DNA of 58,666 nucleotides, from NCBI GenBank assembly GCA_010093705.1, contig MU006089.1, positions 880,011 to 938,676 on the forward strand. Reading direction: 5' to 3'. Under the pieces are notes generated by a model. That model searched no databases, was not told the DNA's origin, and worked only from the letters and a program-made list of their open reading frames with translations. Every line of letters begins with the position of its first letter. The stretch's first letter is position 1. Shown here piece by piece: positions 1 through 33,398 of the stretch. Source of the DNA: Patellaria atrata CBS 101060. Taxonomy: Eukaryota. Made by a program: the position numbers and the translations under genes.

Positions 1-153
1 TATTTCTAGATTCATTCCTGTAGCTTGATCAGCACTGTCTTCTTTACTAGTCCTTTGTCAAGAACCAAACACACTCACTACATACTTAACACACTATGCC
101 TTCTGCTCTAACAGAAACCAAAGCTAGTCAAGTGAAGCTGCCGAATTCTCAAG

Positions 154-1434
154 ATGGCGACGGCAGCAACAATACAAGCAGTCCCGGTGTTTTCCATGCA
201 GGATCCATCCTTCCAACCTTCGGTCAAGTCTGTAGCTCCTCATAACGGTACCACTGCCGATACTTCAGTCGAATTCGACCCGGCAAAACATATATTATTC
301 CAGCCACCGTCTAAGATCATCAAGATGACAGACATTGGCTATGCAGAAGACACTGGAGTATCCCCTGTGGCAGTGTCACATCCGTTCCAACTCTTCTCAG
401 AGGACGCTATCGGGGAGATGAGAAAGGAGATATTTAAGAAAGAGGTTTTGGCCAATTGCAAGTACGAAAGCAATATTGCTGCTTGCCAGTTGAGGGGATA
501 CTCTCCAAAGTGCGTTTACCTACCTCTCAACATCTAAGGACAGATGACTGACACACATGAAACAGATATGCGAAATTCATCTACGATGCCTGGAAGCACC
601 CCGATACCCTTTCTATCATCTCGAAGATAGCTGGGGTCGATCTCGTACCGGAAATGGATTTTGAAATTGGGCATGTAAATCTCTCTATTAAGTCAAAGGA
701 ACAGACTGATCAAGAAATCGCGGCTATCTCGAACCAAAAGCGATTTTTTGCTGATGATGAAGGGATTGCTGGCTGTCCATGGGAGGATGATAAACCAATC
801 GTTGGTTGGCACACAGATAGCTATCCATTCGTTTGTGTCCTTATGCTTAGCGATTGTACGAACATGGTCGGTGGCGAGACAGCTCTAAGAACCCCTGACG
901 GTAACATCTTGAAAGTTCGCGGTCCTGGAATGGTAGACTTTCTCTTTTCTTCGCATGGTTTGAACTCTACTAACATTATGTTAGGGTTGCGCAGTTATTC
1001 TTCAAGGGCGTTACATTACACATCAAGCCCTCCGGGCCTTAGGAACCAAGGAGCGTATCACCATGGTCACTTCGTTCCGTCCCAAATCCCCGTTTCTTGC
1101 GGATGATTCGGTACTCCGCACAGTCAGACCAATTTCAGACCTCTCGGAGCTATACTATGATTTCGGGGAGTATCGACTTGAGATCATGGAAGCGCGAATC
1201 AACGCTAGGTTGAAAGTTATACGGGATCGTCGCCGAGCAGGCAAGAGGATCGATACGTCGGCGTTTAAGAAGTTCCTCCAAGAACAGATTGCTTTCCTTG
1301 CTCACACAAACAGCGAAATAGTTGAGGAGGATCAGGTTACTGTAGGTTACATTGAGGAGATGGACATCCCAGACGTTAAGGTTGAAGCTATGGAGGTCCC
1401 AAAGCAGGGTACTAAGAGGGCTCGTACAGATTGA
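154..1434 (+). CDS. Fungal 2OG-Fe(II) dioxygenase-like hypothetical protein (3 exons; introns ~510-565 and ~933-984)
   Basis: Spliced ORFs give GWHTDSYPFVCVLMLSDC...GGET...H.A......RITMVTSFRP, i.e. HxD...H...RxS-like double-stranded beta-helix motifs; the start codon is uncertain. Confidence 0.7.
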
Positions 1435-2942
1435 TCGGATAGCATGATTGCAACTCTAAGTAAGCTTTGAGGGGTGTTGATGATTCGATTATTGCTTTGG
1501 GTGTTCATTTGTCTCGACTACGGGTTCTAGTCTTCTGACTTGACGGTTTTTGCGGTTCCGATGACAAGGGTAGAGCTCTTTATTCCTTGATGAGACCGTT
1601 TTTTTTTTTGAAAAAAACATAATGAAGTCGATTACTAGGCTCTAAGTAGATGAAATCGATTGCTTTGGGTGTACTGATGAAGGTTCCAAGGTTCTGCTGC
1701 ATCGGGCGTGATTGCGAGATGTCGAGATACAGTACAGCCGGAAGCGAGTACGCCATCACCACGACAAGATAAGTCACATTCCCATGTTTTGAAAATAAAT
1801 AATGACAAGATTAGTTGAGTGATGAGCTTGTATATTCTCTTATATAGCGGCGAATGATTTAAGAACTGAGATAAATAGATAGAATAGATATAACTGGTTC
1901 AGGAGAGGAGATATATAAGGTAAGCAAACAAGGAGACACGATGGAATGCTGGTGTAAAAGATGCATGCTACAGTACCTGAGAAGGCGACGAGAGGACAAA
2001 CACCTAAAAATACACTCACTCCCATTGACGATGCCAAATTGTGTCTCTTTGCTGGGAAGATATCGACAACTGTTGTGTCCATATGCCAGTAGTTATCGGG
2101 GGTTACAGTTCTACGTAGGCACGGTAGGTAAGTATGTCGGAGAGTAAAAGCTTGAGGTTCTGTGGCTAGGGTCTCAATAAATAGTACCTAGGCTTTCGTC
2201 TTGGACGTTGGATACGAGCTAACAAACATTATTGGTACTGAGGTGAACCTGTACTGTATAAGTATGATGGGCTGTTATATTGTCGTCTTTCAAAATGTTG
2301 GATTGGTGAAGAGAAAACTGTACTCGGCTTGACGTTTTATACATATTCAGGCGGGATAAGTGAAGGGAGATGGAAGGAAAATATAAAAGGGTGTCAGATG
2401 GTAGAGATCCTTGAATGATGGAGAGGTTGTCTGCTGGGTCCCCGCAATGCTCTCCAATAAAACGAGCAGGTGGTGCAAGAAATTTTAGCGCTGCGGTCGT
2501 TCCTCGTCTTTTCCATCGTGTGGCCATGATTATTCCCTAAAATCCATGAAACGTGAGGCAGTCAATGTGAGTGGATGTCGTTTGTCATCCCACTGCATTT
2601 AGAGTTGTCGCCCTTGTTGCCCTTCCGGGTTGTTGCCCTTGTGTTGCCCGTCGTGCTTTCCCTCCACTCTCCTCCACTCCTACCGAACCTGCAACCTAAC
2701 CCTACCTTACCTCACCCGTCGTGCCTTACTGTACTGCAAATACTGTACGTAGCTTCTTACCTTACCTTAGGTTGCAGCTTCTTCACCACCTTGGAAAGGC
2801 AAAGGCACGCGCTGTCGACCTTTCTTGACGGGAGATTCTCTCCCAACAACCTCTTACTTCCGAACAGTCTTGAATGACTTTGTTCCCGGTGTAATGAGGA
2901 TTACCACATTTGTACATTTAATACGGCCTCTTGCCATTCAAC

Positions 2943-5900
2943 ATGTCAGCCATGGACACACGAGCTTCATCTGCCCCCGCCACGACTTCACGTAATGTCC
3001 GTCAAAAGCCCACAAGCACTTCAGCATCATCAAGTACAGTCATGCCCTCCAATGCCACCTCTCGACCACCTCAGGTGATTCGACCATCACCTTCGGCATC
3101 GTCATCGGCGCCGCGGAGTACGACGGGCTCTACCACCAGCACGCACAAACCTCCCACACAATCATCCATAGAGATCAGAAAAGCTCGTACCTCAAGCAAA
3201 GATAGTCTCACCGCAAAGATGCCCAAGAAGCAGGACGAGGTAGTCAAACCTGATAAGAACGAGGAGGTACTAGATCACCAATCGGTATTCAAATCCTCAC
3301 CCACGAACACCTAGATCTAATGAACATCCGTAGCTATTGAAAGTCTATAAGTCGAGCTTTGATAGCCTTCGCTCGTTGATTACCTGCAAAATCTGCGACC
3401 GACTCCTATACGAACCATATGTCATTTCGTGCGGACATGTTTATTGTTACAGCGTGCGTATCAGCATTGATTCGATAAAAAGATTTAACTAATTTCTTCA
3501 AGTGCCTTTGTCAATGGTTCGTCACCAACAAGAAGAAGAAGACTTGCCCGGACTGCCGTGCACATATCATAGATCCACCTGCTCCATCCTATTTGGTTCG
3601 TCATACCCTTTCCCGAATGGAAGAGATATTCTAACGTTCTACTTGCAGACGAGGGAAATTACGCAGAATTTGATCGCACGAGCTGAGCTTTTGCCTCCCG
3701 GGGAGTCAGCGGAGCAACATACAACATGGCATAAAGAAGAACAAGACCAGATCCAGCAGGATAAGAATAACACGGACAAGCGGACAGGTGGTTTGTTCAA
3801 AGGCGTCTTTAGAAACACCAGGAAACTTCGTGTGTTCGTAGACGAAGAAGACACGGTCGATAGGTGTCCTTACTGCATGTGGGAACTTGTGGATCGCGAA
3901 TGCTCACAATGTGGTCTTCAGGTTGACGAGAACGGTTCAGTCATTTTTCCTAACAGCTTTGGAGGCTTCAGTGACATGGATGAAACCTCGGAACACAATA
4001 TGTCTGGGGAAGATCACGATGCTGAATTGGATATGGAAGACGACGATGCTGAGCTTGGGTTTGAGGAAGATGGCATGGAAGAATGGGGAAACTACCATGA
4101 GGATGATCATCCATATGCTGTCCGCAGATGGCTTGCAAATGGTGCTCTTGGTGCCCCTCCCCACACTTACGCGAGTGCACCGAGACGACGCGCTGCACAT
4201 AGCGCGGCTGGTAGTCGAAGGCGGTCATACAGTGCGAGTATTATATCCGATATTTTCACAGAAGACGCGGAGATGGAGACTCTCGAAGAGGAAGATGACG
4301 AGGATTTGGAAGATGAGGATTCCTCTATGAATGATTTTATAGACGATGAAGTGGAGGAGCAGTCGCAAAGTACGAATTCTACGAGTGGTCAAACTCTTCA
4401 ACCATCTTTCAATGTTAACCAAAGACGAGCGCGGCGGGTCGTTGAATCGGATTCGTCCTCTGTCTCACATATACAAGACCTTGAGGAAGATGACGAGGAT
4501 GAGGGTCCGATACCAAATGGTAGACGTCGCCAGAATCCTGGTGCAACAACGGCTAGATTTGGGCACCGAGGAACTGTTCCACCTTCTGAGAGCACAGAAG
4601 CATCGATAGATCAAGAGTTGAGTGACGATGAGCAAGCTTTGCTGTACGAGAACGCTTGGGCACAGTTGGGGAATGATGGCCAGGACGATGAGATGGATGA
4701 CGGGGAAGGTGATGATAGTGATGGGGGAAGAACGACAATTGGGTGGGAGCCGACAGCGAACTCTAACGATACTTCCCGAATACCTGGTTCTCTAACGCCT
4801 GTCGCAGGTCGTCCTCCCGCCTCGAATCCCCATGCCCCTCGAATAGGTAGTTCTCGCTTCCTGGATGGTTCCCGTGGGCTACGCCGTCGAAGCTCTGTTC
4901 TGTCCGTATCGACAGTGAATTATGAAGATGGTGAGGCGGATGATGATGATTCCGAAGCCGAACAAGGGATTGACCACGATGGTGATATGAACATGAACGG
5001 TTTGCAAATCCGTGCTCGTCGTTCACGTATACGTTTGCGAAATGGTCAAACCCCAAACGTGGGACGCCCCGAATCCAGAATCCTCTCAGTTGGAGATGCT
5101 GTCGATGTAGACACCGATGATAATTCTGATACCTCTGCATACCCTTCTAGGCGTCGACAGCGAATGCACTCAAGGCAACCAGATTATGACCCTAGAATCA
5201 GTTGGATGTTCACTCAGCATCTTAATGATATGCGTGAGATCGGCCAGGTACCCGGTGGTATAAATGAGTACTTAGAGCAGCTTCGCGCAGTAACACCTGT
5301 ATCACGGCCTAGGACGGCTAATAGAAACCGGTTCACGTATTCCCCGGCACCGTTTTCACCTTTGTCTAACGGGTCCCTTCCCCCATTTTCGCCACCGGCA
5401 AATGCGCCAACACGACATAGAACGCCTTCCATTGATGGCTCTTCTGTTGGTGGACGTTTGACGGAAGCGTCGTCTCGCCAGTCACGCAGTAGTTCTACGT
5501 CTGTCCAGTCCAGCTCGACAATTTCCGGAGTTCCAGTCCAGAACACAAGTGTAGGTCAACAACGAGACTCCTCGACTGTTTTGGATAGCACCGCAACTGC
5601 TTCTCAGCTATCTAATTCCATCCAGGCTGCGTCTACTGGGACTAACTCACTCCCTATAGATGCTATGGGAGATATAATTGAACGTCCCATGTCTCGTGTT
5701 AGCTCCCGTCCGCCTTCTGCTGCTGGAAGACGTCCAGCTCCCCCGTTTGGGCCTGCCTATTCCGGCCTATCCATTAATCCTGGTCTAAATTTTGCTGCAC
5801 GCTCCTTCCAAGCAGGGACACGGAACCCATTTGCTTTCTACATCCGACCACGGCCTTCTACGCAGCAATTCAGGGAGCAATCATCCACCGCTACACTACG

Positions 5901-10759: not shown

Positions 10760-10859
10760 NNNNNNNNNNNNNNNNNNNNNNNNNNNNNNNNNNNNNNNNN
10801 NNNNNNNNNNNNNNNNNNNNNNNNNNNNNNNNNNNNNNNNNNNNNNNNNNNNNNNNNNN
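10760..10859. other. Assembly gap (100 N)
   Basis: Run of N. Confidence 1.
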
Positions 10860-16685: not shown

Positions 16686-19082
16686 ATGGCACCCTCATAC
16701 GATAATCTCGATGCTGAGGAAGAGCTCGACGACATCGAAATTGACTACTCAGATCTCCGTGATGCATACGAAGTCAGATTAGAAGAAGGCCTCGACGCCT
16801 TCGTGGTTATTGATGGTCTCCCTATCGTAAACGAGGAACAGAAGGAAAAGCTCATAAAATTCTTATTGCGAAAGCTCAACTCGGTGGGTAAAGTTAAGGA
16901 GGATGGTGTTTTTATGCCTCTGGGTGACAATGGAAAGAGTGAGGGGTTGGTTGAATTCTTATCGTGATGAGAAAGACTTTCGCTAATATATGCTAGGTTT
17001 GCTTTCGTTGAGTTCGCAGCTGCTGAGCAAGCTGCTGCTGCAGTCAAGCAGCTCCATGGCACACCCCTAGATAAGAGACATACCATTGCAGTAAACAAGC
17101 TCACAGATATTGATCGCTATGGGCGAGAAGGCCGCATTGACGATCACTACGAACCTCCTTATATTGAGCCCTTTCAGGAAAAGGAACACTTGAGATCATG
17201 GCTAGGTGACCCAAGCGCTAGAGATCAATTTTGCATGTACCGCGGCGATAAGGTTGGTGTGTTCTGGAACGAGAAGGAAGACCCTCCGGAGCCTGCAGTT
17301 GATCGGGATCACTGGACCGATTTATTCATACAATGGTCACCTTTAGGAACATATCTTACATCGCTACATAAGCAAGGTGTCCAGCTCTGGGGTGGCAAGT
17401 CGTGGAGTAGGCAAAGTAGGTTCGCACATCCAGGCGTTAGACTCGTGGATTTCTCGCCAAATGAAATGTTCATCACAACATGGTCACCTGAACCGATACA
17501 AGTGAACGAGAACCATCCGGTATTATCGCTCGAGGAGGATGGTAAAAACTACATCATCTGGGACGTCGCAACATGCAAACCTCTAAGATCATTTGTCACC
17601 CTGGATACTCCAGGTCCAACAACAGATGAACACGGCAATCCAATTAGGAAAAAATTACAGTGGCCCGCGTTCAAGTGGTCTGCAGACGATAAATACGTCG
17701 CTCGTATGACTCAAGGCCAATCCATATCCGTTTACGAGCTACCGAAGATGAATCTTCTCGACAAAGCGTCTATCAAGATCGAAGGTGTGATGGACTTCGA
17801 ATGGGCACCCGCATCTCCTCGCCGGGAAGGCAACAGGAACTACGAGCAGATATTCTGCTATTGGACACCTGAGCTAGGTAGCAATCCCGCAAAGGTTGGC
17901 CTTATGAGTATACCTTCCAAAGAGATCATTCGTACCCGGAACCTGTTCAATGTCTCTGACGCGAAGTTACACTGGCAATCAGACGCGAAATTCGTCTGTG
18001 TAAAAGTAGACCGACATTCCAAGTCCAAGAAATCACTTGCCACAAACCTCGAGATCTTCAGAGTGGAAGAAAAAGGTGTGCCCGTTGAAGTCGTGGATTC
18101 GATCAAAGATACCGTCATCAACTTCTCGTGGGAACCAAAAGGCGACCGTTTCGTACTCATCACCACCCCCGAGATTCCTGCAAACACCGCCGTTCCTCCC
18201 AAAACATCAGTCGCCTTTTTCTGTCCCGAGAAAGCAAAGGGCAACGCCGTCGGTAATTTCAAGCACATCAGAACGATCGACAAGAAGAACAGCAACTCGA
18301 TCTACTGGGGACCCAAAGGCCGCTTCGTCGTCGTCGCAACGATACAAAACCAATCCAGCTTCGACCTCGACTTCTGGGACCTAGACTTCGAAGGCGAGCG
18401 CGACGAAAAAGACAAAGATCTCACCGCTAACCTGCAGTTAATGGGCTCTGGCGAACACTACGGCATCACCGACGTAGAGTGGGATCCCACCGGCCGCTAC
18501 CTCATCACTTCCAGCAGTTGGTGGAAACACCAGGTAAGTCCACCCCANNNNNNNNNNNNNNNNNNNNNNNNNNNNNNNNNNNNNNNNNNNNNNNNNNNNN
18601 NNNNNNNNNNNNNNNNNNNNNNNNNNNNNNNNNNNNNNNNNNNNNNNAGACCAAATTCTAATTCAGCATAGATGGAAAACGGCTACCACCTCTACGACTT
18701 CCGCGGCACACTCCTCCGCGAAGAGCACATCGAAGGCTTCAAGCAAATCGCCTGGCGCAAGCGCCCCCCCACCCTCCTCTCCAAGGACCAGCAAAAGGAC
18801 GTCCGCAAGAAACTCCGCGACTACTCCAAGGAGTTCGAGGCCGAGGATCTCGCTAAGAAGAACACGGCCACCAGGGCGGTGGTCGAGCACCGTAGGAGGC
18901 TCCTGGAGGAGTGGAATGCCTGGAGACAGCGCGTCATGGAGGATCTCGAGGATGAGGGTGTCGATCCGGAGGATCTGAGGGGTCCCCAGGACGGTAAGGA
19001 GGGCGAGGAGCCGGAGGAGGGTCAGGTCGTTGAGGAGATCGTCGAGGAGATTATTAAGGAGACTGAGGAGGTTGTTGGGTAG
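16686..19082 (+). CDS. PRT1: Translation initiation factor eIF3 subunit b (3 exons)
   Basis: N-terminal RRM (FVVIDGLP...FAFVEF), beta-propeller ([23 protein letters not shown]) and C-terminal [10 protein letters not shown]. Confidence 0.96.
18548..18647. other. Assembly gap (100 N) inside the last eIF3b intron
   Basis: Run of N between a GTAAGT donor and a CTAAT...TAG acceptor. Confidence 1.
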
Positions 19083-24037: not shown

Positions 24038-27000
24038 CTATTCCGACACCATGCTCTGGTCGCCCTCCGTTGCCTGATCAGCTTCAGTATTCGTTCCGTC
24101 GCCATCCCCTTCTGTGTTACTCCTCAGTTCTGCTTCCACTTCCGCAGCCTTAGCATTAATAGCTTCCATTCTAGCGATAAATTCCTTCTGCAGCTCCTTC
24201 AACCAGCTCTTCAGAACGTCTCCTTCCAAGGTACCATTCTGCGCCTGAACCAGATGTTCTTTCAGGCTGAGGATCAGTTTTCTACGGCGTTCGTGTATGA
24301 CCGACATGGAATTCTTCTTCTGTCTCTGCATACGACGTTGGAGCGTCTCTGCCACTGTTGTTGCATGTTCGACAACCGCGGGTGGAAGAGGAACAACGTT
24401 CGCGAGCGCGAGACCGTAATGTTCCTCTTTGACCGCACCCTCAGCGATCTTATATAGCATATTGATCCGGTCGCAATCAGTCATTTCAACAGCAAGATGC
24501 AGGTTGACCACGCCATTTCTCTCCGACATGATGGTTGCTAGATCCCGAAAATGGGTTGCAAACCATACCAGAGCCTAAAATGATATTAGCACTGAAGCTT
24601 GAAAGTTAGGACCGCACACGAACCCGACTTCCTACAAGGGCTTCTGCAATAGCCAGTGCAATAGCTAGTCCATCTCTTGTACTGGTACCTCGCCCAAGTT
24701 CATCAACAATTGCCCTAGAAGATATTAGGATCCAGGTTTTATCGATCTGTGAGGAGTACTCACATGCTTCGTTTATCAATATTCCGGAGGATGAATGCAG
24801 CTTCCCTCATCTCCGCGGCGAAAGTTGACACATTCGATTCAACACTATCATCTATGGAAACTCGTGCAAATAATTGATATATAATTGGGAATGCCGCGTA
24901 CTGGGCAGGAACGCTGGGTGCTATTAGGAAAGTTGGCCTCTAAGTGCTTCTAGGTGTTGACAGCTTACAAACTACCTATCTGGGCCATTACAGACATCAA
25001 CGCGATGGACCGAATATATGTACTTTTACCGCTCATATTACATCCGGTAATGATCTGAAATCTGTTTTGCTGAGTCGCGTATACATCGTTAGGTATGTAT
25101 TTGCTCGATTGCACCTTTTCGCGGATAGGATGACGTCCAGACTTGATTGCTAACGTATCTGCAAGCTGGGGTCGAACTATAATCACTCAGTATTTGACGC
25201 CACTTCATATATCTCCTTACGAACCATAGTCCTGACTCGTCACCAATTGGGCGAATGAAGCTAACTGTTCTATGTTAGGTGTGTTGCAAACGTAGATACT
25301 TTCGAAATTCATACCATGTCCAGCATCGCAATGCTTTCACAGATTCTAAATAGAGCTGATATATGTTCTCTTATGGATGCAATGAGATCAAATACAGCTT
25401 GATTACTCATAAGAATTACTTCTTGGTGTGCATCCGTAATCTAGAGAGTCAGTAAGTGAAGATCGTAGCGTATGCGACAATATCACCTTCTGATTCTTCT
25501 TCACAAGGTCTAAGGTCTGACATTCTACGAAATTCTTTTTCCGAAAGACATTGACAAATACTGAAGGTAATACACGCTCTTCTAACTCAGATGCTTGAAC
25601 TCGAATGTAGAACTGGCGATTGCTATCAAATTTCAGGTCCAGTGGTATCTCATGCGTGTCTAGCAAGAACGTCAGTATTATGATTAATGTCAGCCTAGAA
25701 TGTAATGACTTACGGCTCAATTCAGTCACATATTGATATGTGTCTTCCGTAGCCTCCTTATAGGCTTGTCTTGCTACATCTAAAAGACCATTGACCCCCG
25801 ACTTTTAGGAATGTCACTAATAGTATACTGCTGCCAGCTATGAGCCACAAACCTTAACAGCGTAAGTGCGCTGGTTTCTCAAATCCAGGGGCTGATTAGC
25901 GAAAGTAGTGTCTTCGTTGATCACAGTATCAATTAATTCTCGCACCGGATCCACGTTTTGCGGAGCACACAACTGCAGAAGATTAGTTGTATTAGAGGAT
26001 AAAGGGGACAAAACGAACCGCGCGAATATTAACCAATATTGCGCTCCTTACGCTAGTCATCGCTTCGTATATCGGACTAACAGACAGGACAAATTGCTTC
26101 AACATAATGACATTATTGATAGCTTGCTCTGCCTGTTGAATGAACTGGGAAGATGTAGGAGTGGGGATGATAATGAGCTGTTCTGAGATAAGTTTGAGCT
26201 TATCATGAAATGATAGGTCTTAACATACAGCTGTTAGGACCTTGTCAACATCAAAGAGTGCTCTCAAACCTGCTAAATTTTAGAGAAGTCTGCCAATATA
26301 AGTAATAGAACCAACCTTGTCTTGTAGCAAAGAAGAGTTCTTCCTTTGTGGTGAGTTCCTCTAGCGCATCGTATCTATTGTTCAGAGTGTCGGCATCAGT
26401 AAGCGGTTGCAAGATATTACTTCTTAGCAGACGCGATCCCATTGGTGTGAGTGTTGCATTCAGAAGGCCAAAAAGACAATCTTTCGATTTTGGTTTTTGT
26501 AAGTTCTGTATAAGTTCCAAGGAATGAATAGTCGAAACATCAATCATCATTGAACCCTCGGAGGGCTCATACTTAATCCTGAGCGAATGAAAAGGAAACG
26601 TCTTAGACAAACCCAGTTCAATGTACTTGAGAGCCTAAGGGAATATGAGAAAGGATACTAAAACCCTTCATCAGGAATGGAAACATACAGCAGCTATGCA
26701 GCAGACAGCAAAGTAATTCCCACCAATCGAAATCTTGATGGCCTCAACGTCTTCCGCAAAAGCTAGCTGCTGGATGTATTCCAGTCCTGTAGTCTCAGCC
26801 CAATAGCGACGATCCAGCAATTTCATTCTGCTATTAAGAGCTTCTAAGTTCTCCTCAATGATGGAGAAAAGTTTAGACTTGGGATTAGCAGCAGTCGATA
26901 CTATTAGAATCTTAGACGGCCCATAGACCATGAGCTTGTGGATGGTCCGCACATATGTCTGACTGTCACATATTTGGCAAAGAACTGCCTCACCGTTATC

Positions 27001-27261
27001 AAGGTTGACGAAAGCAAGGCCGACAGTAGGTGAAATACCGCGGGATTCACTAACGGCACAGATGATCTGCTGAGATTCGATACCAGCAATGGTGGAGATA
27101 CCTGTCCTTGGTCTACCTGTGCCTGGCCGGCCATTGCTTCTACGTTCTGTTCGCGTACGTGAAGTAGTGGTGGTATATTCATTGTAGGAGTACGATGGAT
27201 AAGACGTGCTCACAGAAGTGTAGGAAGTTGATACATCTGAACGCTTGTTCTTTAAAGGCAT
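24038..27261 (-). CDS. MSH4: Meiotic MutS homolog 4 (multi-exon)
   Basis: [49 protein letters not shown] (Walker A), [24 protein letters not shown]; lacks the mismatch-binding domain I. Confidence 0.93.
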
Positions 27262-28109
27262 GATTTTTGTTTAGCACTTTGGTTAACAATTAGCAAAGGA
27301 ATGATTTAATATGATAATCTAAGATCTCCACAAAAAATCTTGAAGATCCATGTGAGATATGACTTGGATGAGAAGTTCACTTTTGTTGATGAGATGGGAA
27401 AGAACAAGTCGCGAACGTGGAGTGGAGGTCGCGTTGGCAGGACGCATGAGCCATATCTTAACTCTTGGCATAAAATGGTCCAAGGCGAAGCGCCGGGGTA
27501 CCGTACGAAACTCAAGGTTCTTTTTAGTTCTTTGTTAAATACTTAGAATGCAATCAATTCATACTGTTATCTGAGGTCTCGATGAAAAATCTTCAAGATT
27601 CATGTGCGATATGACTCGGATGAAAGTTCAGTTTCTTTTCACGAGATGAGACACGAACGAAAGTCAGCCCAGGTCAATAATACTCAGTTGTGGCCAACAA
27701 TACGTATCGATAAGGTATTGGTATTCTCGGTATTTCATCGGTATTGTATCGAATATTGTAATACCTTAAAAATACTCTTGGCATTCAAGGCTTTTTGATA
27801 CTTTTTAGAATTTATCTAAAATATTCATACATTTTGAAGAATTTTATTGAGATGAAGATGCCTTCGTACGAAGCCATTGCATAGCTATGAGTAATATGTA
27901 CAGTTATTCTAATATGGAAGGCACGAGGGCGTGCCTGCCTTCCCACCTGCCTACCTACCCACCTGCTAGTTTACATAAATATCTCTTCTTTCTAAGCTTT
28001 CTCTTCTTCTCTTCTTCTCTTCTTTTCTCCTCCTTGACCTCTCATTTAGCAACTCGAAATATAAGTGCTCAGCTCAAATCTATCGTACGAAGGCTAATCA
28101 GACTACAGC

Positions 28110-28646
28110 ATGGCAGATATGCAAGTAGTTCTCTACAACCCAGCGATCGCGCTTGCCGCTCAGGCAAACCGCAACCCAGTGCTACTCGTAGCACAGCAGC
28201 AACTGGCTCCGTGATGCCATAGCCCACAGAGTAGAGCACTTCTGGCTGTCGGCGGGGGTGCTGATGTTGAGTTCGTACGGGGCTCCATCACGCCTCAGCA
28301 GATTGGATCTCATAGGCAGTCATATGTCAATAGGATCCTCATCCAATCTCGTGGAGGTGATTTTGATCCTTGTACGGCTTGTGGTACGAAAGGTTTTCGT
28401 CCCTTCCTTAGTTGTCGCCGCGCTGGGGGACACTTTGGCGGAGCATGTGCCAACTGTAAATGGCGTGACCATGCAGCGCGCTGTCCCGTACGAGCTGGTA
28501 GGCCAAATGAGCCTACTTATGGAGACAGGCTGCTTGGACCTGGTCCAGGGGATGACGGAGCTGACGGCAGTGCCCCTGGGAATGCTATCACGCTGGGAGA
28601 TGATGACCAAGGGGCTACTCCCCAAAATGCTAGAATCATTGTCTGA
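28110..28646 (+). pseudogene. DUF3716-like Cys-rich protein gene inside the hAT element (178 codons, one in-frame TGA at 28212)
   Basis: Not in the ORF track. The frame reads MADMQVVLYNP...LAP*CHSP...YVNRILIQSRGGDFDPCTACGTKGFRPFLSCRRAGGHFGGACANCKWRDHAARC..., and IQSRG..CxxC..PFxxC..GACANC is the pattern I recognise as DUF3716. Confidence 0.75.
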
Positions 28647-28782
28647 GCAAAGCTTCGTACGAAACTTTCTTTGGCGTTCTAGCGTTCTAGCTTTTAGGTG
28701 TTCTACTTTACATAGCTACACAGCTATTAATAGCACTTAGACATGATCTGTACCTTTACGTGGTGTCTAAGATTAGTAGCCA

Positions 28783-30250
28783 TTAGGCGAAACTAAATAG
28801 ATCGTACGAACCTTTTAGTAAAATGTTTTGTTTTGCCCAATGCTTAAGACATTTAGTATGTTCTAGCTCTCTTGAATTTAAGCGTGATCTTTCCCATGAT
28901 ACCGTACGACGAGCTGCTGAAAATACTCGTTCTGGTTCATCACTTATAGCTGGAATTGAGAGGCTCTCAACTGAAAGTATAGATGGCCGTGGAAACCGAG
29001 CTCTTTAAGTATCAGTTAACCACCATTTAATAGGTGAAGCGTCCCCAATATCGTACGGACCTTGGTTAATATAATCTTCAAACTCATCACCACTTAAGGG
29101 AGTCTTATTAAACCACTAAATTTGATCAAGAACACGTTCAAAATCAGTTATATTCTCAGATAGAGTCCTCTTTTCTTCGTACGACGCTGATAATGGTACT
29201 AAATAGGTTTTATTCCATTTTTCCAGTATAATTTAGTAAGCTTAATTATCTACTCAGCTTTCCCTCTTTCTTTCCTCTAACCTTCCTTAATAATCTTCTG
29301 TACGATATTAAGGAGTAAAGATTGTCGCAAGAATATAATAAGGTGAGGAAAGAAGTATAGAATAATACTTCTTAAAAAGGTGTAAAGCTTTACAAAGTTA
29401 AGGTTCAAAATCTTTCTTATAGGTATTGTCACGGTTTGGTACTTACACACACACGTCCCGTGATCACGTGGTCTTATCTCATCAGATAAGATCCCTTGGC
29501 GTAATGATCATATCAACGATCCTTCGTAGTTTGTAGATAATCAGTTCTAATATATTCGTTAATACTCAATATTGTTAGTTTATCTACTACGTTGACGTGC
29601 CCTTACAGGTATGTTCATACTTTCTTAAAAGAATATGAAAGCCAAGTATCGTACGAAGTATTATATTAAATGATAGAGAATGGGCTTAATTTACGTTACC
29701 TTATAAAAGGGGCGAAGAATTAAATGGATCGTACGAAGCTTTTTCCAATCTTTATATGAAAGATAATCCTCTTTAAGATCACTATATTATCTCTTAATAT
29801 ATAAATCGATTTCTTCTTCTTTACTTAGTGCAACATCTATCATAATATACTAGCTATTCCATCTTGTACGATTATCAAGTGGAATCATTCTCTCTACTCT
29901 TATAGTAAAGTCTTTTAAGTGATGTGTAGAGCTTCGAATATAAACCACAATATTATAAAGCTTTCCAAGTGACCCTACCGTACAAAAGGCTGACTATCTC
30001 TATCTTCTTAAGTCGGCTTGTCTTATCTTATAATCCTCTATTGATAGTTTATATGTAAGACTACTTAGCCCTTAAGATTTAATTTATTCTTCAGCGTCGT
30101 ACGACTCAATTAAGTTCCAGGGAACGCAAAATCATGGAGAAGCAGCTAAAGTTAAGAATGACATTAACAAAGCTCTTTTGTATAGAGAAGGGGAAAGAAG
30201 TACTCTTCCAGTACCTACATAATACTTAGATCTCAACAGCTAAATGGCTT
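28783..30250 (-). pseudogene. hAT transposase remnant with many stops
   Basis: Minus-strand motifs LGKLYNIVVYIRSS...PLDNRTRWNS*Y (~29850-29970) and the dimerisation domain PIKWW...RFP...LSIPAISDEPERVFSAARRTVSWERSRL...CLKHW (28825-29040). TAA/TAG stops fall where CAA/TGG are expected, which is RIP-like. The 5' boundary is approximate. Confidence 0.88.
29427..29607. mobile_element. Solo LTR (181 bp) nested in the hAT transposase
   Basis: Starts TGTCACGG, ends CCTTACA, flanked by a perfect 5-bp TSD GGTAT (29422-29426 and 29608-29612). Confidence 0.85.
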
Positions 30251-30360
30251 CTACATACAAGAGAAATAAATGAAGAAGAACAAGAAACGTATTAAAAATG
30301 ATAGCATACAGGGGAAAAACTGGATTGAAATATAATGCAGGGAATTGAGGAGCAAAGGAT

Positions 30361-30868
30361 TGTTACAACGGGAGTCTATACTTATCGAGACAGAACTAGA
30401 TAAGTCTAGAACGCGCCTGGCTTCTCACTTAACGTGGTCAACCACAAAGGTAGGTTTGGCAAAGTGATAGGATACGTATAACAAAGGCACTTCAAGTTGT
30501 CGACACAACTTGCTGACTCCTTGACTTCGGGTAATGCTCACNNNNNNNNNNNNNNNNNNNNNNNNNNNNNNNNNNNNNNNNNNNNNNNNNNNNNNNNNNN
30601 NNNNNNNNNNNNNNNNNNNNNNNNNNNNNNNNNNNNNNNNNAAGAATAACTACGAAGAATCTAAATACATGAGGGAAAGACCGTCCTTAAATATTCCTAT
30701 CCTCCATAGTCAATTTGGTGGTGCTCCCACTGCTCCTGTGCTCCCACCTAGGGATCACTGGGAGCATGGGATCACGTCACGTGACCTCCGTGCTCGTTGT
30801 TCCGTTCCGACGTCCTCGTGCTACCATTCCGCTGGTGATGCACTCTCTGTCGTTCTGTGGCCGTAACA
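30361..30868. mobile_element. LTR retrotransposon insertion (solo LTR or collapsed full element) spanning an assembly gap
   Basis: TGTTAC...GTAACA inverted termini, 5-bp TSD AGGAT (30356-30360 and 30869-30873), N gap at 30542-30641. Confidence 0.85.
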
Positions 30869-31847
30869 AGGATATAGTGGAGTTGGTTCACTTTTTCTAA
30901 AAGCTTGACTTGGACTGTAAAGTTTGGACAACTGGAGAGTTTCACTCCTCAGACACTCTCACTAGGCATATTATTGCCCTAGGATAGGGATTTATGTGAA
31001 TAGAAGAGTAGCGCCATAGCCCTAGAGGCTGCATGCGCAGTATTGTAGATAATGCAATGCAATGGATTTAAAAAAAAAATCGATATCGATCTAATACAAT
31101 ACTAATCAGTATTCAATACTATTTAATACCGGAATATTATTGGCTATACTGGCCAGGTCGCGTGTCATGACGCACGGGTCATATTCTCAATCTTGGTACA
31201 AGGACTATTGAACACTTTTTCTTTGAAGAAACTCAAGAATTTTTTTAGCCCTTTGCCTACCGGTTAGCAAAGGCGTGTTGCAGCGTAATTATCTAAGATC
31301 TCAGCAAAAAGTTTCAAAGATCCATGTGCAATATGAAATTTGGAAGGGAAGTTCAGTTTCTCGTCTGGACGTGGTAAGAGGGGTAGATCAAGTCGCGTTC
31401 ACGCACGAGCCATAACCCAAACCTTGGCATATAAATGTCTACCCAAAAGCATCAACACATACTGTAAACGCTTCTTAAAAACTCAAGGAATTTTTAGTCA
31501 TTTGCTTAACGGTTAGTCTAGGAGTAATTTAACACAGATATCTGAGATCTCCGCAAAAAATGTCGACGATCCATATGCGATATAACTTTCGAAGAAAAAT
31601 TCAGTTTCCCTTGATCAGAACGGAAACCCGAGTGAAGTCGTCACCTCAGTCGTCAGTAAAGTCATCACGCCTTTGGGATGCACGTACCACCCACGCGAGT
31701 CATCCGAAATCTTGGCACAAAAAAAGTTCCAAAGACAACACATCACCAGCTGAATATCCACTCACATCTCAACACCTCAACAACCCCTTGACCAAATCGG
31801 TCACCAACAACACCACAACTTGAAAACACCTAGATACTCCCGTCACC

Positions 31848-33398
31848 ATGGCCACACAATACCCACCGCCCTCGAAGCGCCAAAAAACCGCCGCGGCCGC
31901 GCTCGCCAGCAAGCAACAAGAGATAGACCAGATCCCCACCGACCTAGGTAACGTACGCATCCAATTCATAGACCGCGCGACCAACGCGCCCACCGGTCCC
32001 CCCGTTTCCGTCCCCGTCGCCCAATCCACTGTCAAGAACCTCGAGCTCCTTCTCAACTCCCTCCAAGGGCACGACGAAGCCCACGACCGAATCCCCTTCC
32101 GCTTCTTCCACGAGCGAGGCGAAGGCGACGGCGACGCGCTGGCCGATGGCACGGATGTGTACCATGCACTGCTGAAGGAGGGGAAGGCGGGGACGGAGGA
32201 GACGATCACGCTGCATTATGCCCCGCAGGCTGTGTTTAGGGTGAAGGCGGTGAGTAGGTGCTCGGCGGCGATATCGGGGCACGGGGAGCCGATTTTGTGC
32301 GTGCAGTTTTCGCCCACGAGCTCGTCGAGGATGGCGAGCGGGAGTGGGGACAACACGGCAAGGATATGGGACTGCGATACCGGGACGCCGCTGCAGACGC
32401 TGAAGGGGCATACGAGCTGGGTGCTTGCGGTGAGCTGGTCGCCGGACGCGAGTATGATCGCGACGGGGAGTATGGATAATACGGTGAGGTTGTGGGATCC
32501 GGTTACGGGAAAGGCTCTGGGAAGTCCGCTGAAGGGGCATTCGAAGTGGATTACGAGTCTGAGTTGGGAGCCGTATCATATACAAGAGAAAGGGAGACCG
32601 AGGGTTGCTTCGAGTAGCAAGGATGCTACAGTGAGGATATGGGATGCGGTTAATCGGAGAGCGGATATATCACTGAGCGGACACAAAGGCTCGGTGACAT
32701 GCGTGAAGTGGGGAGGTGTGGGCTTCATATACACGGCTTCATATGATAAGACGGTAAAGGTGTGGAATGCCTCAAATGGCACGCTTGCACATACCCTCGC
32801 GTCTCATGCTCATCGGGTCAACCATCTCGCGCTCTCAACAGACTTTGTCTTAAGAACAGCGTACCATGATCATACGGGAATGGTCCCCGATACGGATGAA
32901 GGTAAATTATCTAAGGCAAAAGAAAGGTTCCGCAAGACGGCTATGATCAATAAAAAGGTCGTTGAGCGGCTGGTAACCGCGAGCGATGACTTCACAATAT
33001 ACCTCTGGGAACCTTCCAACAGCACTAAGCCGGTGGCACGATTAATTGGTCATCAAAAGCAGGTCAATCACGTCACTTTCTCTCCAGATGGTCTCTATAT
33101 CGCCTCAACAGGTTTCGATAACCATGTCAAACTTTGGAATGCCCGAGATGGCAATTTCATCTATACTCTAAGAGGACACGTAGGACCAGTATACCAATGC
33201 TGTTTTTCTGCAGACTCAAGACTACTAGTAACAGCAAGCAAGGATACAACACTCAAAGCATGGGATGTCAGAACAGGTAAACTGAGTGTTGACTTACCAG
33301 GGCATGCTGATGAGGTGTATGCCGTTGACTGGAGTCCAGATGGTGAAAGAGTAAGCAGTGCAGGAAAAGACAAGCAAGTCAGGATCTGGAGATATTGA
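31848..33398 (+). CDS. RSA4: Ribosome assembly WD40 protein Rsa4/Notchless (intronless)
   Basis: NLE domain, then YAPQAVFRVKAVSRCS...GH, eight WD repeats, HLALSTDFVLRT, ASDDFTIYLW, DLPGHADEVYAVDWSPDG. Confidence 0.96.
   Translation: MATQYPPPSKRQKTAAAALASKQQEIDQIPTDLGNVRIQFIDRATNAPTGPPVSVPVAQSTVKNLELLLNSLQGHDEAHDRIPFRFFHERGEGDGDALADGTDVYHALLKEGKAGTEETITLHYAPQAVFRVKAVSRCSAAISGHGEPILCVQFSPTSSSRMASGSGDNTARIWDCDTGTPLQTLKGHTSWVLAVSWSPDASMIATGSMDNTVRLWDPVTGKALGSPLKGHSKWITSLSWEPYHIQEKGRPRVASSSKDATVRIWDAVNRRADISLSGHKGSVTCVKWGGVGFIYTASYDKTVKVWNASNGTLAHTLASHAHRVNHLALSTDFVLRTAYHDHTGMVPDTDEGKLSKAKERFRKTAMINKKVVERLVTASDDFTIYLWEPSNSTKPVARLIGHQKQVNHVTFSPDGLYIASTGFDNHVKLWNARDGNFIYTLRGHVGPVYQCCFSADSRLLVTASKDTTLKAWDVRTGKLSVDLPGHADEVYAVDWSPDGERVSSAGKDKQVRIWRY

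What the first reader, a model, noticed from the sequence alone, without database searches (positions are those of the whole stretch)
27676..31151. Two-gene hAT transposon carrying a convergent DUF3716-like Cys-rich gene
Seen: between an 8-bp TSD and CAG-starting TIRs lie a minus-strand hAT transposase remnant (ending 28783) and, tail-to-tail with it, a plus-strand 178-codon frame (28110-28646) with CxxC...PFxxC...GACANC...RC. The ORF track misses this frame because of one stop. Established: hAT elements make 8-bp TSDs and usually encode only a transposase; DUF3716 is a fungal domain of unknown function. Inference: the gene may be a dedicated accessory, possibly a Zn-binding DNA-binding regulator or anti-silencing factor, of a hAT subfamily. 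That would give this DUF a mobile-element context. I cannot verify whether this pairing is already described.
Basis: partly seen in the sequence, partly recalled or inferred. Interest (0 to 1): 0.78.

Follow-up and report, generated by a model that had tools for sequence, protein, structure and literature searches.

The report
Two-gene hAT transposon with palindrome array
A decayed fungal hAT jumping gene carries a second, cysteine-rich DUF3716 gene, and relatives of that gene travel in several unrelated kinds of transposon that are all studded with the same short DNA palindrome, which points to a shared protein-plus-docking-site kit of unknown function.

Summary
Window 27676-31151 is one insertion in a 250-bp tandem array, with a 7-of-8 target-site duplication. 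It holds a DUF3716 gene (28110-28646, Pfam 45 bits, one TGG>TGA nonsense codon). Tail-to-tail with it lies a RIP-like-decayed hAT transposase remnant that lacks about 200 N-terminal codons.

The two-gene layout is a family trait. In 75 metagenome loci (50 distinct full-length relatives), 13 lie beside hAT transposases, and two pairs sit inside shared inverted repeats. The gene is not hAT-specific, though. Other relatives lie beside Gypsy, Copia, Crypton, IS3EU and helicase-type genes.

In 41 of 50 relatives CGTACG is the most enriched of 64 palindromic hexamers. It is 20-100 times denser inside elements than outside, spaced about 150 bp apart, and occurs in all codon phases. The window's element holds 12 of the window's 19 sites.

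Best reading: a portable module of a zinc-type protein plus its (T)CGTACG(A) docking sites. Binding and its effect are inferred, not shown.

DUF3716 genes in a transposon are already published (Zymoseptoria REP9). Earlier notes of this scan recorded the palindromes and the DUF3716 cargo separately on other DNA.

The parts
27266..27675 (.). Left part of the host ~250-bp tandem array (units start at 27266 and 27518) into which the element inserted
   Evidence: family D1: four copies with spacings 252, 3722 and 249
27668..27675 (.). Left copy of the target-site duplication (cCCAGGTC)
   Evidence: the word occurs once per uninterrupted array unit
27676..27684 (.). Nine unexplained bases (AATAATACT) between the duplication and the left inverted repeat
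   Evidence: Read; absent from the other array units
27685..27745 (+). Left terminal inverted repeat (starts CAG) followed by four GGTATT subterminal repeats (27714, 27720, 27729, 27740)
27864..30104 (.). Array of 12 CGTACG palindromes, 8 of them TCGTACGA, plus 5 one-mismatch sites. It runs through both genes and the spacers.
28110..28646 (+). DUF3716-family accessory gene: one exon of 178 codons plus stop, a pseudogene through TGA at 28212-28214 where relatives have Trp, Tyr or Phe
28783..30110 (-). hAT transposase remnant. It matches about residues 337-702 of a 706-residue relative, has many stops, 33-35% G+C and RIP-like dinucleotide indices.
30356..30873 (.). LTR-like high-copy insertion TGTTACAAC...GTAACA (30361-30868) with 5-bp duplication AGGAT (30356-30360, 30869-30873). 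It contains the 100-N scaffold gap 30542-30641.
   Evidence: (joint 30354>30868; summed depth up to 136755)
30874..31134 (-). Right subterminal region. Too little room is left for the transposase N-terminus.
   Evidence: 528 bp remain beyond residue 337 here, against 1154 bp in L004
31135..31151 (-). Right terminal inverted repeat (reverse complement starts CAGTATAGCC)
31152..31159 (.). Right copy of the target-site duplication (gCCAGGTC)

Best explanation
Shown: window 27676-31151 is a dead, non-autonomous copy of a two-gene hAT transposon, probably in Patellaria atrata. It keeps the family's layout. Behind the left end sits a 178-codon DUF3716-family gene, and a hAT transposase gene converges on it.

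This copy is broken in four ways:
- a TGG>TGA nonsense codon in the DUF3716 gene;
- RIP-like decay of the transposase;
- loss of about 200 N-terminal transposase codons;
- a later LTR-like insertion.

Also shown: close relatives of the DUF3716 gene ride in unrelated element types (hAT, Ty3/Gypsy, Ty1/Copia, Crypton, IS3EU-like, and a helicase-encoding type). Almost all of these carriers are studded with the palindrome (T)CGTACG(A). Sites fall about every 120-160 bp, run through coding sequence in all three codon phases, and stop at the element's borders.

Inferred: the small Cys/His-rich protein binds this symmetric 8-bp word, probably as a dimer, and so marks or coats the whole DNA of its own element at roughly nucleosome spacing. 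The likeliest effect is to keep the element transcribed or shielded from silencing, working like the VANC proteins of Arabidopsis VANDAL elements. A repressive or copy-number-limiting effect is not excluded. The gene and its sites would then form a portable kit that different transposons have picked up repeatedly.
For: Anatomy of the window's copy.

The gene is real and multicopy:
- Intact paralogues of 178 and 174 aa are 87% and 80% identical, and two further annotated paralogues are frameshifted. All four are named Patellaria atrata.
- The stop aligns with Trp in those four, and with Trp, Tyr or Phe elsewhere.
- A contig from a run of organism A (coded; probably DNA) carries G instead of A at 28214.

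The family is large: 1185 representatives at E<=0.001 and 129 at E<=1e-30. All 64 of 64 aligned members hit PF12511 and no other family, apart from one marginal Agouti hit at E 0.0087.

Transposon context:
- I Pfam-scanned 48 of the 299 ORFs of at least 110 aa in 27 chosen loci and ran tblastn on all 75 loci.
- Of 50 distinct full-length relatives, 13 lie beside hAT, 5 beside the helicase type, 4 Gypsy, 4 Copia, 3 Crypton, 1 IS3EU, 1 is merely adjacent to a pogo gene, and 19 are unassigned, mostly on short contigs.
- Two merged gene models join the domain to a DDE_1 transposase and to a Crypton-type NDC10_II+GCR1_C protein.

Palindromes:
- CGTACG ranks first of 64 palindromic hexamers in 41 of 50 relatives. 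In 40 of 50 there are at least 5 sites at 5 times expectation or more. Examples are L022 with 57 observed against 1.7 expected and L018 with 46 against 1.2.
- Density inside against outside elements: window 3.45 vs 0.127 per kb, L027 6.25 vs 0.061, L036 6.49 vs 0.116.
- Spacing is more even than random in most elements (CV 0.23-0.6). The most frequent gap is 120-160 bp.
- Codon phases are 111/67/95 across 19 long ORFs of unrelated proteins. The flanks are symmetric, T at 67% before the word and A at 65% after it, with nothing conserved further out.
- Other transposon genes on the same contigs lack the array: the pogo ORF of L001 has 1 site in 2073 bp, and only 1 site lies in the 16.3 kb of L027 outside its array, where a Tc1-type ORF sits.

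DNA binding by the domain family: recombinant N. crassa NCU05718 binds double-stranded TTAGGG repeats directly and has no annotated DNA-binding domain (PMC4650311, abstract and passages). Its F. graminearum orthologue PSC58 is described as a DUF3716 protein (PMC10776026, passages).

The word as a positive cis-element: multiplying a 19-bp promoter element that contains TCGTACGA raised Pfcyp51 expression in promoter-swap strains of the Dothideomycete Pseudocercospora fijiensis (PMC6637983, passages).
Against: No binding was tested, and no tool here can test it.

The confident model (pLDDT about 90 for residues 20-120) matches no solved structure: Foldseek gave no hit at E<=0.001, VIA-align gave 0 of 48161 chains at Z>=2, and the profile search gave no PDB sequence hit. 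The fold therefore gives no independent support for DNA binding.

The only DUF3716 protein with biochemistry binds TTAGGG, not CGTACG, and its binding domain was not mapped.

The loci were sampled through the gene. Whether palindrome arrays also exist in elements without the gene was not tested.

Nine of 50 relatives do not have CGTACG on top. L034 and L041 have TGTACA instead, with CpG observed/expected 0.29 in L034, which fits decay. L011, L014, L035, L049, L053, L054 and L055 are weak or differ.

Adjacency on short metagenome contigs does not prove that both genes belong to one element. Neither L002 nor L032 shows a target-site duplication.

CGTACG contains no CpA or TpG, so it survives RIP by its make-up. 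Its persistence in the window's dead copy is therefore no evidence of selection there.
Confidence: 0.55

Rival explanations
1. The palindromes are docking sites for a host factor, for example a transcription factor that the elements exploit as dispersed enhancers. The DUF3716 protein then does something else, such as a protein-protein or chaperone role for transposon products. The two features travel together only because both help the same elements.
For: A TCGTACGA-bearing promoter element acts positively at a host gene of a Dothideomycete with no transposon protein known to be involved (PMC6637983, passages). The model of the protein matches no known DNA-binding fold.
Against: The pairing recurs across at least five unrelated element types, although the gene tree shows repeated exchange between them. 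That is easier to explain if the gene and the sites need each other. Transposon genes on the same contigs that lack the DUF3716 partner also lack the array. A relative of the domain family binds double-stranded DNA directly (PMC4650311).
Confidence: 0.25
2. The word is read in RNA. Because it is a palindrome, it is present in both sense and antisense transcripts of the element. A zinc-knuckle-like DUF3716 protein binds these transcripts, for export, packaging or protection from RNA silencing.
For: In Gypsy, Copia, Crypton and most hAT carriers the gene is antisense or convergent to the main gene, so both strands are probably transcribed. A palindrome serves both transcripts.
Against: Even spacing of 120-160 bp suggests a chromatin-scale reading of DNA and has no obvious meaning in RNA. 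Cut-and-paste elements have no RNA intermediate. The one characterised relative binds double-stranded DNA (PMC4650311).
Confidence: 0.08
3. A chance capture or nested insertion: the DUF3716 gene is a host gene or a piece of another element that happened to land in this one hAT copy.
For: The gene has 55% G+C and no RIP signature, while the neighbouring transposase has 33-35% G+C and a RIP-like signature. The two could therefore have different histories.
Against: The same layout recurs in 13 distinct hAT-linked relatives, and two pairs lie within shared inverted repeats. Intact relatives show the same G+C contrast without RIP: L002 has 62% against 43%, and L015 has 58% against 39%. The palindrome array runs through both genes. 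hAT and DUF3716 identities are correlated.
Confidence: 0.03

Closest known systems
REP9 (ZtREP9), IS3EU-like class II transposon of Zymoseptoria tritici (PMC8232023; passages read)
   Same: A fungal DNA transposon that carries DUF3716 genes (REP9-1 and REP9-2) beside its transposase. It is multicopy, has TIRs and TSDs, and the function of the DUF3716 genes is unknown. One related locus here (L016) also pairs the gene with an IS3EU-type integrase (rva_4).
   Different: REP9 belongs to another superfamily: 7.9 kb, four genes, 6-bp TSD. The word stem 'palindrom' does not occur in the main text of that paper. I could not check its sequence for CGTACG arrays. Homology of REP9-1 and REP9-2 to the window's protein beyond the shared domain was not tested.
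hAT superfamily transposons (Ac, hobo, Tam3; the fungal members Restless and Tfo1 are recalled from memory)
   Same: A target-site duplication of about 8 bp, short inverted repeats starting with CAG, subterminal short repeats, and a C-terminal hAT dimerisation domain.
   Different: Classical hAT elements encode only the transposase, and their repeated protein-binding motifs are confined to the subterminal regions. Here there is a second conserved gene, and a second motif class is spread over the whole element, coding sequence included.
VANC anti-silencing proteins of Arabidopsis VANDAL (Mutator-like) elements (PMC5735166, PMC10398659; search listing and start of abstracts only)
   Same: A transposon-encoded accessory protein, separate from the transposase, that is reported to act sequence-specifically on motifs carried by its own element family. 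This is the best functional analogy.
   Different: No sequence or fold relation was found or tested. By the abstracts, VANC targets lie in non-coding regions of one superfamily. Here the sites run through coding sequence, and the same kit occurs in several superfamilies. Binding and any effect on silencing are not shown here.
brtn, the antisense extra gene of Boty-like Ty3/Gypsy elements of Botrytis cinerea (Zhao et al. 2011; seen only as cited in PMC8365987, passages)
   Same: An extra gene on the strand opposite to pol in a fungal LTR retrotransposon. The Gypsy- and Copia-linked relatives here (L013, L028, L018, L022, L025) have the same orientation relative to pol.
   Different: The window's element is a hAT DNA transposon. 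Whether brtn has a DUF3716 domain was not tested here; earlier notes of this scan only suggest a resemblance.
NCU05718 of Neurospora crassa and PSC58 of Fusarium graminearum (PMC4650311, PMC10776026; passages)
   Same: PSC58 is described as a DUF3716 protein and as the orthologue of NCU05718, and NCU05718 binds double-stranded DNA directly. PSC58 is also a gene with a premature stop codon.
   Different: These are host genes needed in sexual development. The bound word is TTAGGG. The PSC58 stop is repaired by A-to-I RNA editing, whereas editing of the window's TGA would need an A preceded by G, which by my recollection is disfavoured. Similarity to the window's protein was not measured.

Membership tests
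hAT superfamily DNA transposon | C-terminal hAT dimerisation domain (PF05699) | tested here: met
   33.7 bits against a cut-off of 21.4 for minus strand 28783-29004. Intact relatives score 46-58 bits.
hAT superfamily DNA transposon | 8-bp target-site duplication | tested here: met
   cCCAGGTC / gCCAGGTC, 7 of 8 identical, at an insertion point defined independently by the tandem array. Nine extra bases at the left junction are unexplained.
hAT superfamily DNA transposon | Short terminal inverted repeats, typically starting CAG or TAG | tested here: met
   14 of 18 positions match and both repeats start CAG. The relative L004 has a perfect 17-bp repeat starting CAG.
hAT superfamily DNA transposon | RNase-H-like DDE catalytic core and N-terminal BED zinc finger | tested here: inconclusive
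   The window's copy aligns only to about residues 337-702 of intact relatives and lacks the N-terminus. Relatives show zf-BED only marginally, at E 3-4e-4. Catalytic residues were not examined.
DUF3716 (Pfam PF12511) | Match to the family model above the gathering score | tested here: met
   45.4 bits against a cut-off of 22, E 7.6e-12, covering profile positions 2-58 of 59. All 64 of 64 aligned relatives also match.
DUF3716 (Pfam PF12511) | Conserved cysteine pattern CxxC...C...CxNC...C | tested here: met
   In the 64-sequence alignment C88, C102, C113 and C116 are invariant, and C91, C125, H108 and H121 are at least 90% conserved. All are present in the window's frame.
VANC-type sequence-specific anti-silencing system | The accessory protein binds motifs carried by its own element | not testable with these tools
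   Only co-occurrence of the gene and the CGTACG array is shown.
VANC-type sequence-specific anti-silencing system | Expression of the protein removes silencing marks from the element | not testable with these tools
   No chromatin, methylation or RNA data were available.
VANC-type sequence-specific anti-silencing system | Homology to VANC proteins | not tested
   No VANC sequence was available to compare. PF12511 is the only Pfam family matched at the default threshold; one of 64 members also has a marginal Agouti hit, E 0.0087.
Antisense additional ORF of LTR retrotransposons (brtn type) | Extra gene antisense to pol, between pol and the 3' LTR | tested here: inconclusive
   This does not apply to the window's hAT element. 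In relatives L013, L028, L018, L022 and L025 the gene lies antisense at the 3' side of pol, but the LTRs were not delimited.

The most novel reading that the evidence does not exclude
Ascomycete transposons of at least five unrelated superfamilies share one portable self-marking kit. It consists of a DUF3716-family zinc protein and its (T)CGTACG(A) docking sites, written about once per nucleosome through the whole element, genes included. The protein coats its own element's DNA and shields it from heterochromatin or genome defence, or keeps it transcribed. This would be a fungal counterpart of plant VANC systems that moves between transposon superfamilies, and it would give DUF3716 its first function.
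Probability: 0.3. Interest if true: 0.9.

Novelty: new variant of a known kind. Interest (0 to 1): 0.78.

Why it matters
Transposons are usually thought to need only their own transposase or polymerase. Here one small gene of unknown function recurs in cut-and-paste, tyrosine-recombinase and LTR elements, always together with the same evenly spaced palindrome in the carrier's DNA.

If the protein reads these sites, this would be a general way for fungal mobile elements to recognise their own DNA and manage their chromatin. It would also give a testable function to DUF3716, a family with over a thousand 50%-identity clusters related to this protein.

It would further explain a codon-independent sequence constraint inside transposon genes. 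And it would offer a simple sequence signature (CGTACG arrays) for finding such elements.

Tried and rejected
- No whole genome is held for this window. Other copies of the element in the same genome could therefore not be compared.
- Homodimer prediction for the intact paralogue gave no verdict (score 0.00 against a mark of 0.32, alignment not used, fold uncertain). It counts neither for nor against.
- Structure comparisons found nothing: Foldseek against the PDB gave no hit at E<=0.001, VIA-align wide gave 0 of 48161 chains at Z>=2, and the profile search gave no PDB sequence hit. The Atlas gave only DUF3716 clusters.
- Search for sequencing runs: no RNA holder is listed. The two runs found are probably DNA of one sample, so nothing can be said about expression or about editing of the TGA.
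- An intron over the stop was rejected. The only GT...AG that spans it is 19 nt long, and intact paralogues are colinear.
- A scan of viral contigs for three TCGTACGA words 115-145 bp apart found only 3 phage contigs. Their arrays are tandem, with 35-66 bp periods, and they hold no DUF3716 relative. They are unrelated.
- Searches for fused or longer forms found none (weak evidence). The exhaustive search lists a few longer proteins. Two of them look like merged gene models that include transposon genes.
- Other enriched palindromes were set aside as competing marks. GTGCAC in L011 falls by a collagen-like repeat ORF. ATCGAT in L007 and L044 belongs to hAT subterminal repeats. TGTACA in L034 and L041 fits CpG decay of CGTACG.
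- The pogo gene beside the relative in L001 has 1 site in 2073 bp, so it was not counted as a carrier.
- TRF did not report the diverged 250-bp host array. It is seen only with the repeat finder.


Full report
**What is in the window**

The stretch 27676-31151 is a single insertion into a diverged ~250-bp tandem array. That array lies between a MutS-homologue-like frame on the minus strand (26671-27270) and a WD40 gene (31824-33398). Array units start at 27266, 27518, 31240 and 31489. The start-to-start spacing is 3722 bp where about 250 is expected.

The word CCAGGTC, present once per intact unit, flanks the insertion on both sides. This gives a target-site duplication identical at 7 of 8 positions (27668-27675 and 31152-31159). 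The right end stops in CTG directly at the duplication. The left CAG lies 9 nt inside it (27685), and the bases AATAATACT in between are unexplained. From those points the ends match at 14 of 18 positions (three transitions, one indel). Four GGTATT repeats follow the left end.

**The two genes**

The plus-strand frame 28110-28646 has 178 codons with one TGA at 28212-28214. It matches Pfam DUF3716 at 45.4 bits (cut-off 22).

A search of 5.8 billion proteins gave 55 hits at E<=0.001 among 199 candidates. The best four are named Patellaria atrata CBS 101060:
- two intact proteins of 178 and 174 aa, 87% and 80% identical over 99% and 97% of the query;
- two models that switch into another frame.

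The stop aligns with Trp in those four and with Trp, Tyr or Phe in the others. The window's copy is therefore a one-exon gene killed by TGG>TGA.

On the minus strand, 28783-29004 matches the hAT dimerisation domain (33.7 bits). Intact hAT transposases from related loci align from 30110 down to 28813. This corresponds to about residues 337-702 of a 706-residue protein.

This part has 33-35% G+C and RIP-like indices: TpA/ApT 1.12-1.25 and (CpA+TpG)/(ApC+GpT) 0.74-0.77. The DUF3716 frame does not (0.69 and 1.53).

The element contains a 100-N scaffold gap (30542-30641). Two public runs of organism A (coded) hold the stretch; they are probably DNA and come from one sample. Laying their contigs on the window showed:
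- single-copy depth in the flanks, about 300-500;
- 2-7 times that depth over the element, with contigs breaking at 27714 and 31050;
- summed depths up to 136755 around 30340-30973;
- a joint from 30354 to 30868 that skips 513 bases.

The window sequence shows why. TGTTACAAC...GTAACA at 30361-30868 is flanked by AGGAT on both sides. This is an LTR-like high-copy insertion with a 5-bp duplication. Whether it is a solo LTR or a whole element hidden by the gap is open.

Without that insertion, only 528 bp lie beyond transposase residue 337, against 1154 bp in the relative L004. About 200 N-terminal codons are therefore missing. The copy is non-autonomous and dead.

**Is the pairing a family trait?**

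A scan of JGI metagenome contigs with the protein alignment returned 75 loci (259 pattern matches, 75 confirmed). Clustering at 95% protein identity gives 58 distinct relatives, 50 of them full-length.

I Pfam-scanned 48 of the 299 ORFs of at least 110 aa in 27 chosen loci. I then used the identified transposon proteins in tblastn against all loci. The 50 full-length relatives divide as follows:

| Neighbour | Relatives |
|---|---|
| hAT transposase, convergent as in the window | 8 |
| hAT transposase, tandem | 5 |
| 1350-1460-aa OrsD + DEAD-helicase ORF | 5 |
| Ty3/Gypsy pol | 4 |
| Ty1/Copia pol | 4 |
| Crypton-type NDC10_II recombinase | 3 |
| IS3EU-type integrase | 1 |
| pogo gene (adjacent only) | 1 |
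| unassigned, mostly short contigs | 19 |

In L004 a perfect 17-bp inverted repeat starting CAG encloses both genes (1-3336). In L032 an 84% matching repeat does the same. No target-site duplication is visible at L002 or L032.

Among 11 hAT-linked elements with enough sequence, identities of the hAT C-terminal region and of the DUF3716 protein are correlated (Spearman 0.47; permutation p about 0.0025). There are exceptions, such as L032 against L038: 40% for hAT and 64% for the DUF3716 protein.

A maximum-likelihood tree was built from 60 rows. Left out were the fragment loci L062-L075, proteins under 125 aa and exact duplicates. The tree places the window with its two paralogues and the hAT-linked L002 (support 97/91). 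Overall it mixes carrier classes: 29 label changes, where 10 is the minimum and shuffled labels average 35.5.

So the gene is a stable passenger that has also moved between element types.

**The palindrome array**

The window holds 9 TCGTACGA words, where 0.61 are expected and the largest count in 100 shuffles was 3. Eight of them lie between 27864 and 30104. Of 19 CGTACG words, 12 lie in the element, or 3.45 against 0.127 per kb. Five more sites differ by one base, and four of those are CpG transitions.

The same word marks the relatives:
- It ranks first of 64 palindromic hexamers in 41 of 50 full-length relatives. It has at least 5 sites at 5 times expectation or more in 40 of 50.
- Where flanks are available it stops at the element borders: L002 5.15 vs 0.147 per kb, L027 6.25 vs 0.061, L036 6.49 vs 0.116.
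- Gaps peak at 120-160 bp and are more even than random in most elements. L016, L020, L036 and L038 are not.
- In 19 long ORFs of unrelated proteins the sites fall in all codon phases (111/67/95) at 4.6-8.7 per kb. The exception is the pogo ORF of L001, with 0.5 per kb.
- Only the bases next to the core are biased, and symmetrically: T at 67% before it and A at 65% after it.

Exceptions are listed in the Against line. L034 and L041 carry TGTACA, which fits CpG decay.

**Mechanism**

Shown: a conserved small protein, and a symmetric, evenly spaced DNA word, that travel together in unrelated mobile elements.

Inferred: the protein binds the word. Four points favour this:
- the invariant Cys/His pattern;
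- the symmetry of the word;
- the direct binding of double-stranded DNA by NCU05718 (PMC4650311), whose orthologue PSC58 is described as a DUF3716 protein (PMC10776026);
- the recurrence of the pair despite gene exchange between carriers.

A published promoter-swap experiment shows that multiplying a 19-bp element containing TCGTACGA raises expression of a host gene in a Dothideomycete (PMC6637983). This makes an activating or anti-silencing role plausible. It equally fits the rival reading, in which a host factor reads the word.

The protein's model is confident but matches nothing solved.

**Comparison with what is known, and novelty**

DUF3716 genes inside a class II transposon are published for REP9 of Zymoseptoria (PMC8232023). 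Antisense extra genes are known in fungal and plant LTR elements (brtn; cited in PMC8365987). Sequence-specific transposon accessory proteins are known from plants (VANC; PMC5735166, listing only).

My searches found no paper that links DUF3716 with hAT elements or with a palindrome array:
- 'DUF3716' returned 2 papers.
- 'CGTACG' + 'transposon' + 'palindrome' returned 1 unrelated paper.
- 'TCGTACGA' returned 317 papers, of which I saw 15 in the listing and read only the P. fijiensis paper.

Supplements of the REP9 paper were not opened, and they may hold sequence that bears on the array.

Earlier notes of this scan recorded TCGTACGA arrays in another hAT-like element of this genome and in IS3EU and Crypton elements elsewhere. 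They also recorded DUF3716 relics in Gypsy and Copia elements. None of them held both the words CGTACG and DUF3716.

**Verdict**

This is a new variant of a known kind (a transposon accessory gene), and it comes with an undescribed, cross-superfamily link to a palindrome array.

Noticed in passing
window 30356-30873: An LTR-like repeat (TGTTACAAC...GTAACA) with 5-bp duplication AGGAT is inserted in the hAT element and holds the 100-N scaffold gap. Summed contig depth there is up to about 300 times the single-copy flanks. A contig joins 30354 to 30868, which is the empty site in another copy.
   Followed up: partly
window 27266-27675 and 31152-31740: A diverged ~250-bp tandem array of four units, 67-74% alike, lies in the intergenic region between the MutS-homologue-like gene and the WD40 gene. 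TRF does not report it. Its nature is unknown.
   Followed up: no
window 28110-28646 against 28647-30110: RIP-like dinucleotide indices are confined to the transposase part, and the adjacent DUF3716 frame shows none. Intact relatives have the same G+C contrast (56-62% against 39-43%) without RIP, so the gene may simply have escaped, or it was kept longer.
   Followed up: partly
window 27864-30104 and related loci: TCGTACGA contains no CpA or TpG, so it is immune to canonical RIP. Decayed relatives (L034, L041; CpG observed/expected 0.29 in L034) carry TGTACA instead, which is the product of CpG transitions.
   Followed up: partly
window 28273-28280 and 28486-28493; alignment A1: Inside the DUF3716 genes the palindrome is often written over conserved Val-Arg dipeptides with the codons GTA CGN (the motifs EFVRG and CSVR). 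Phase 2 dominates in these genes: 69 of 150 sites.
   Followed up: partly
L020, L026, L030, L045, L052: A large ORF with an OrsD zinc-finger domain and DEAD/Helicase_C domains (up to 1463 aa) lies next to relatives of the gene and carries 20-28 palindromes itself. What kind of mobile element this is was not established.
   Followed up: no
window 27676-27684: Nine bases (AATAATACT) lie between the left target-site duplication and the CAG of the left inverted repeat. They have no counterpart at the right end or in the host array.
   Followed up: no
window 10760-10859 and 18548-18647: Two further 100-N scaffold gaps in the window.
   Followed up: no
L076-L078 (viral contigs): Phage contigs with tandem CGTACG-core arrays of 35-66 bp period. 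They are unrelated to the fungal module and resemble arrays already noted by this scan in actinomycete phages.
   Followed up: no
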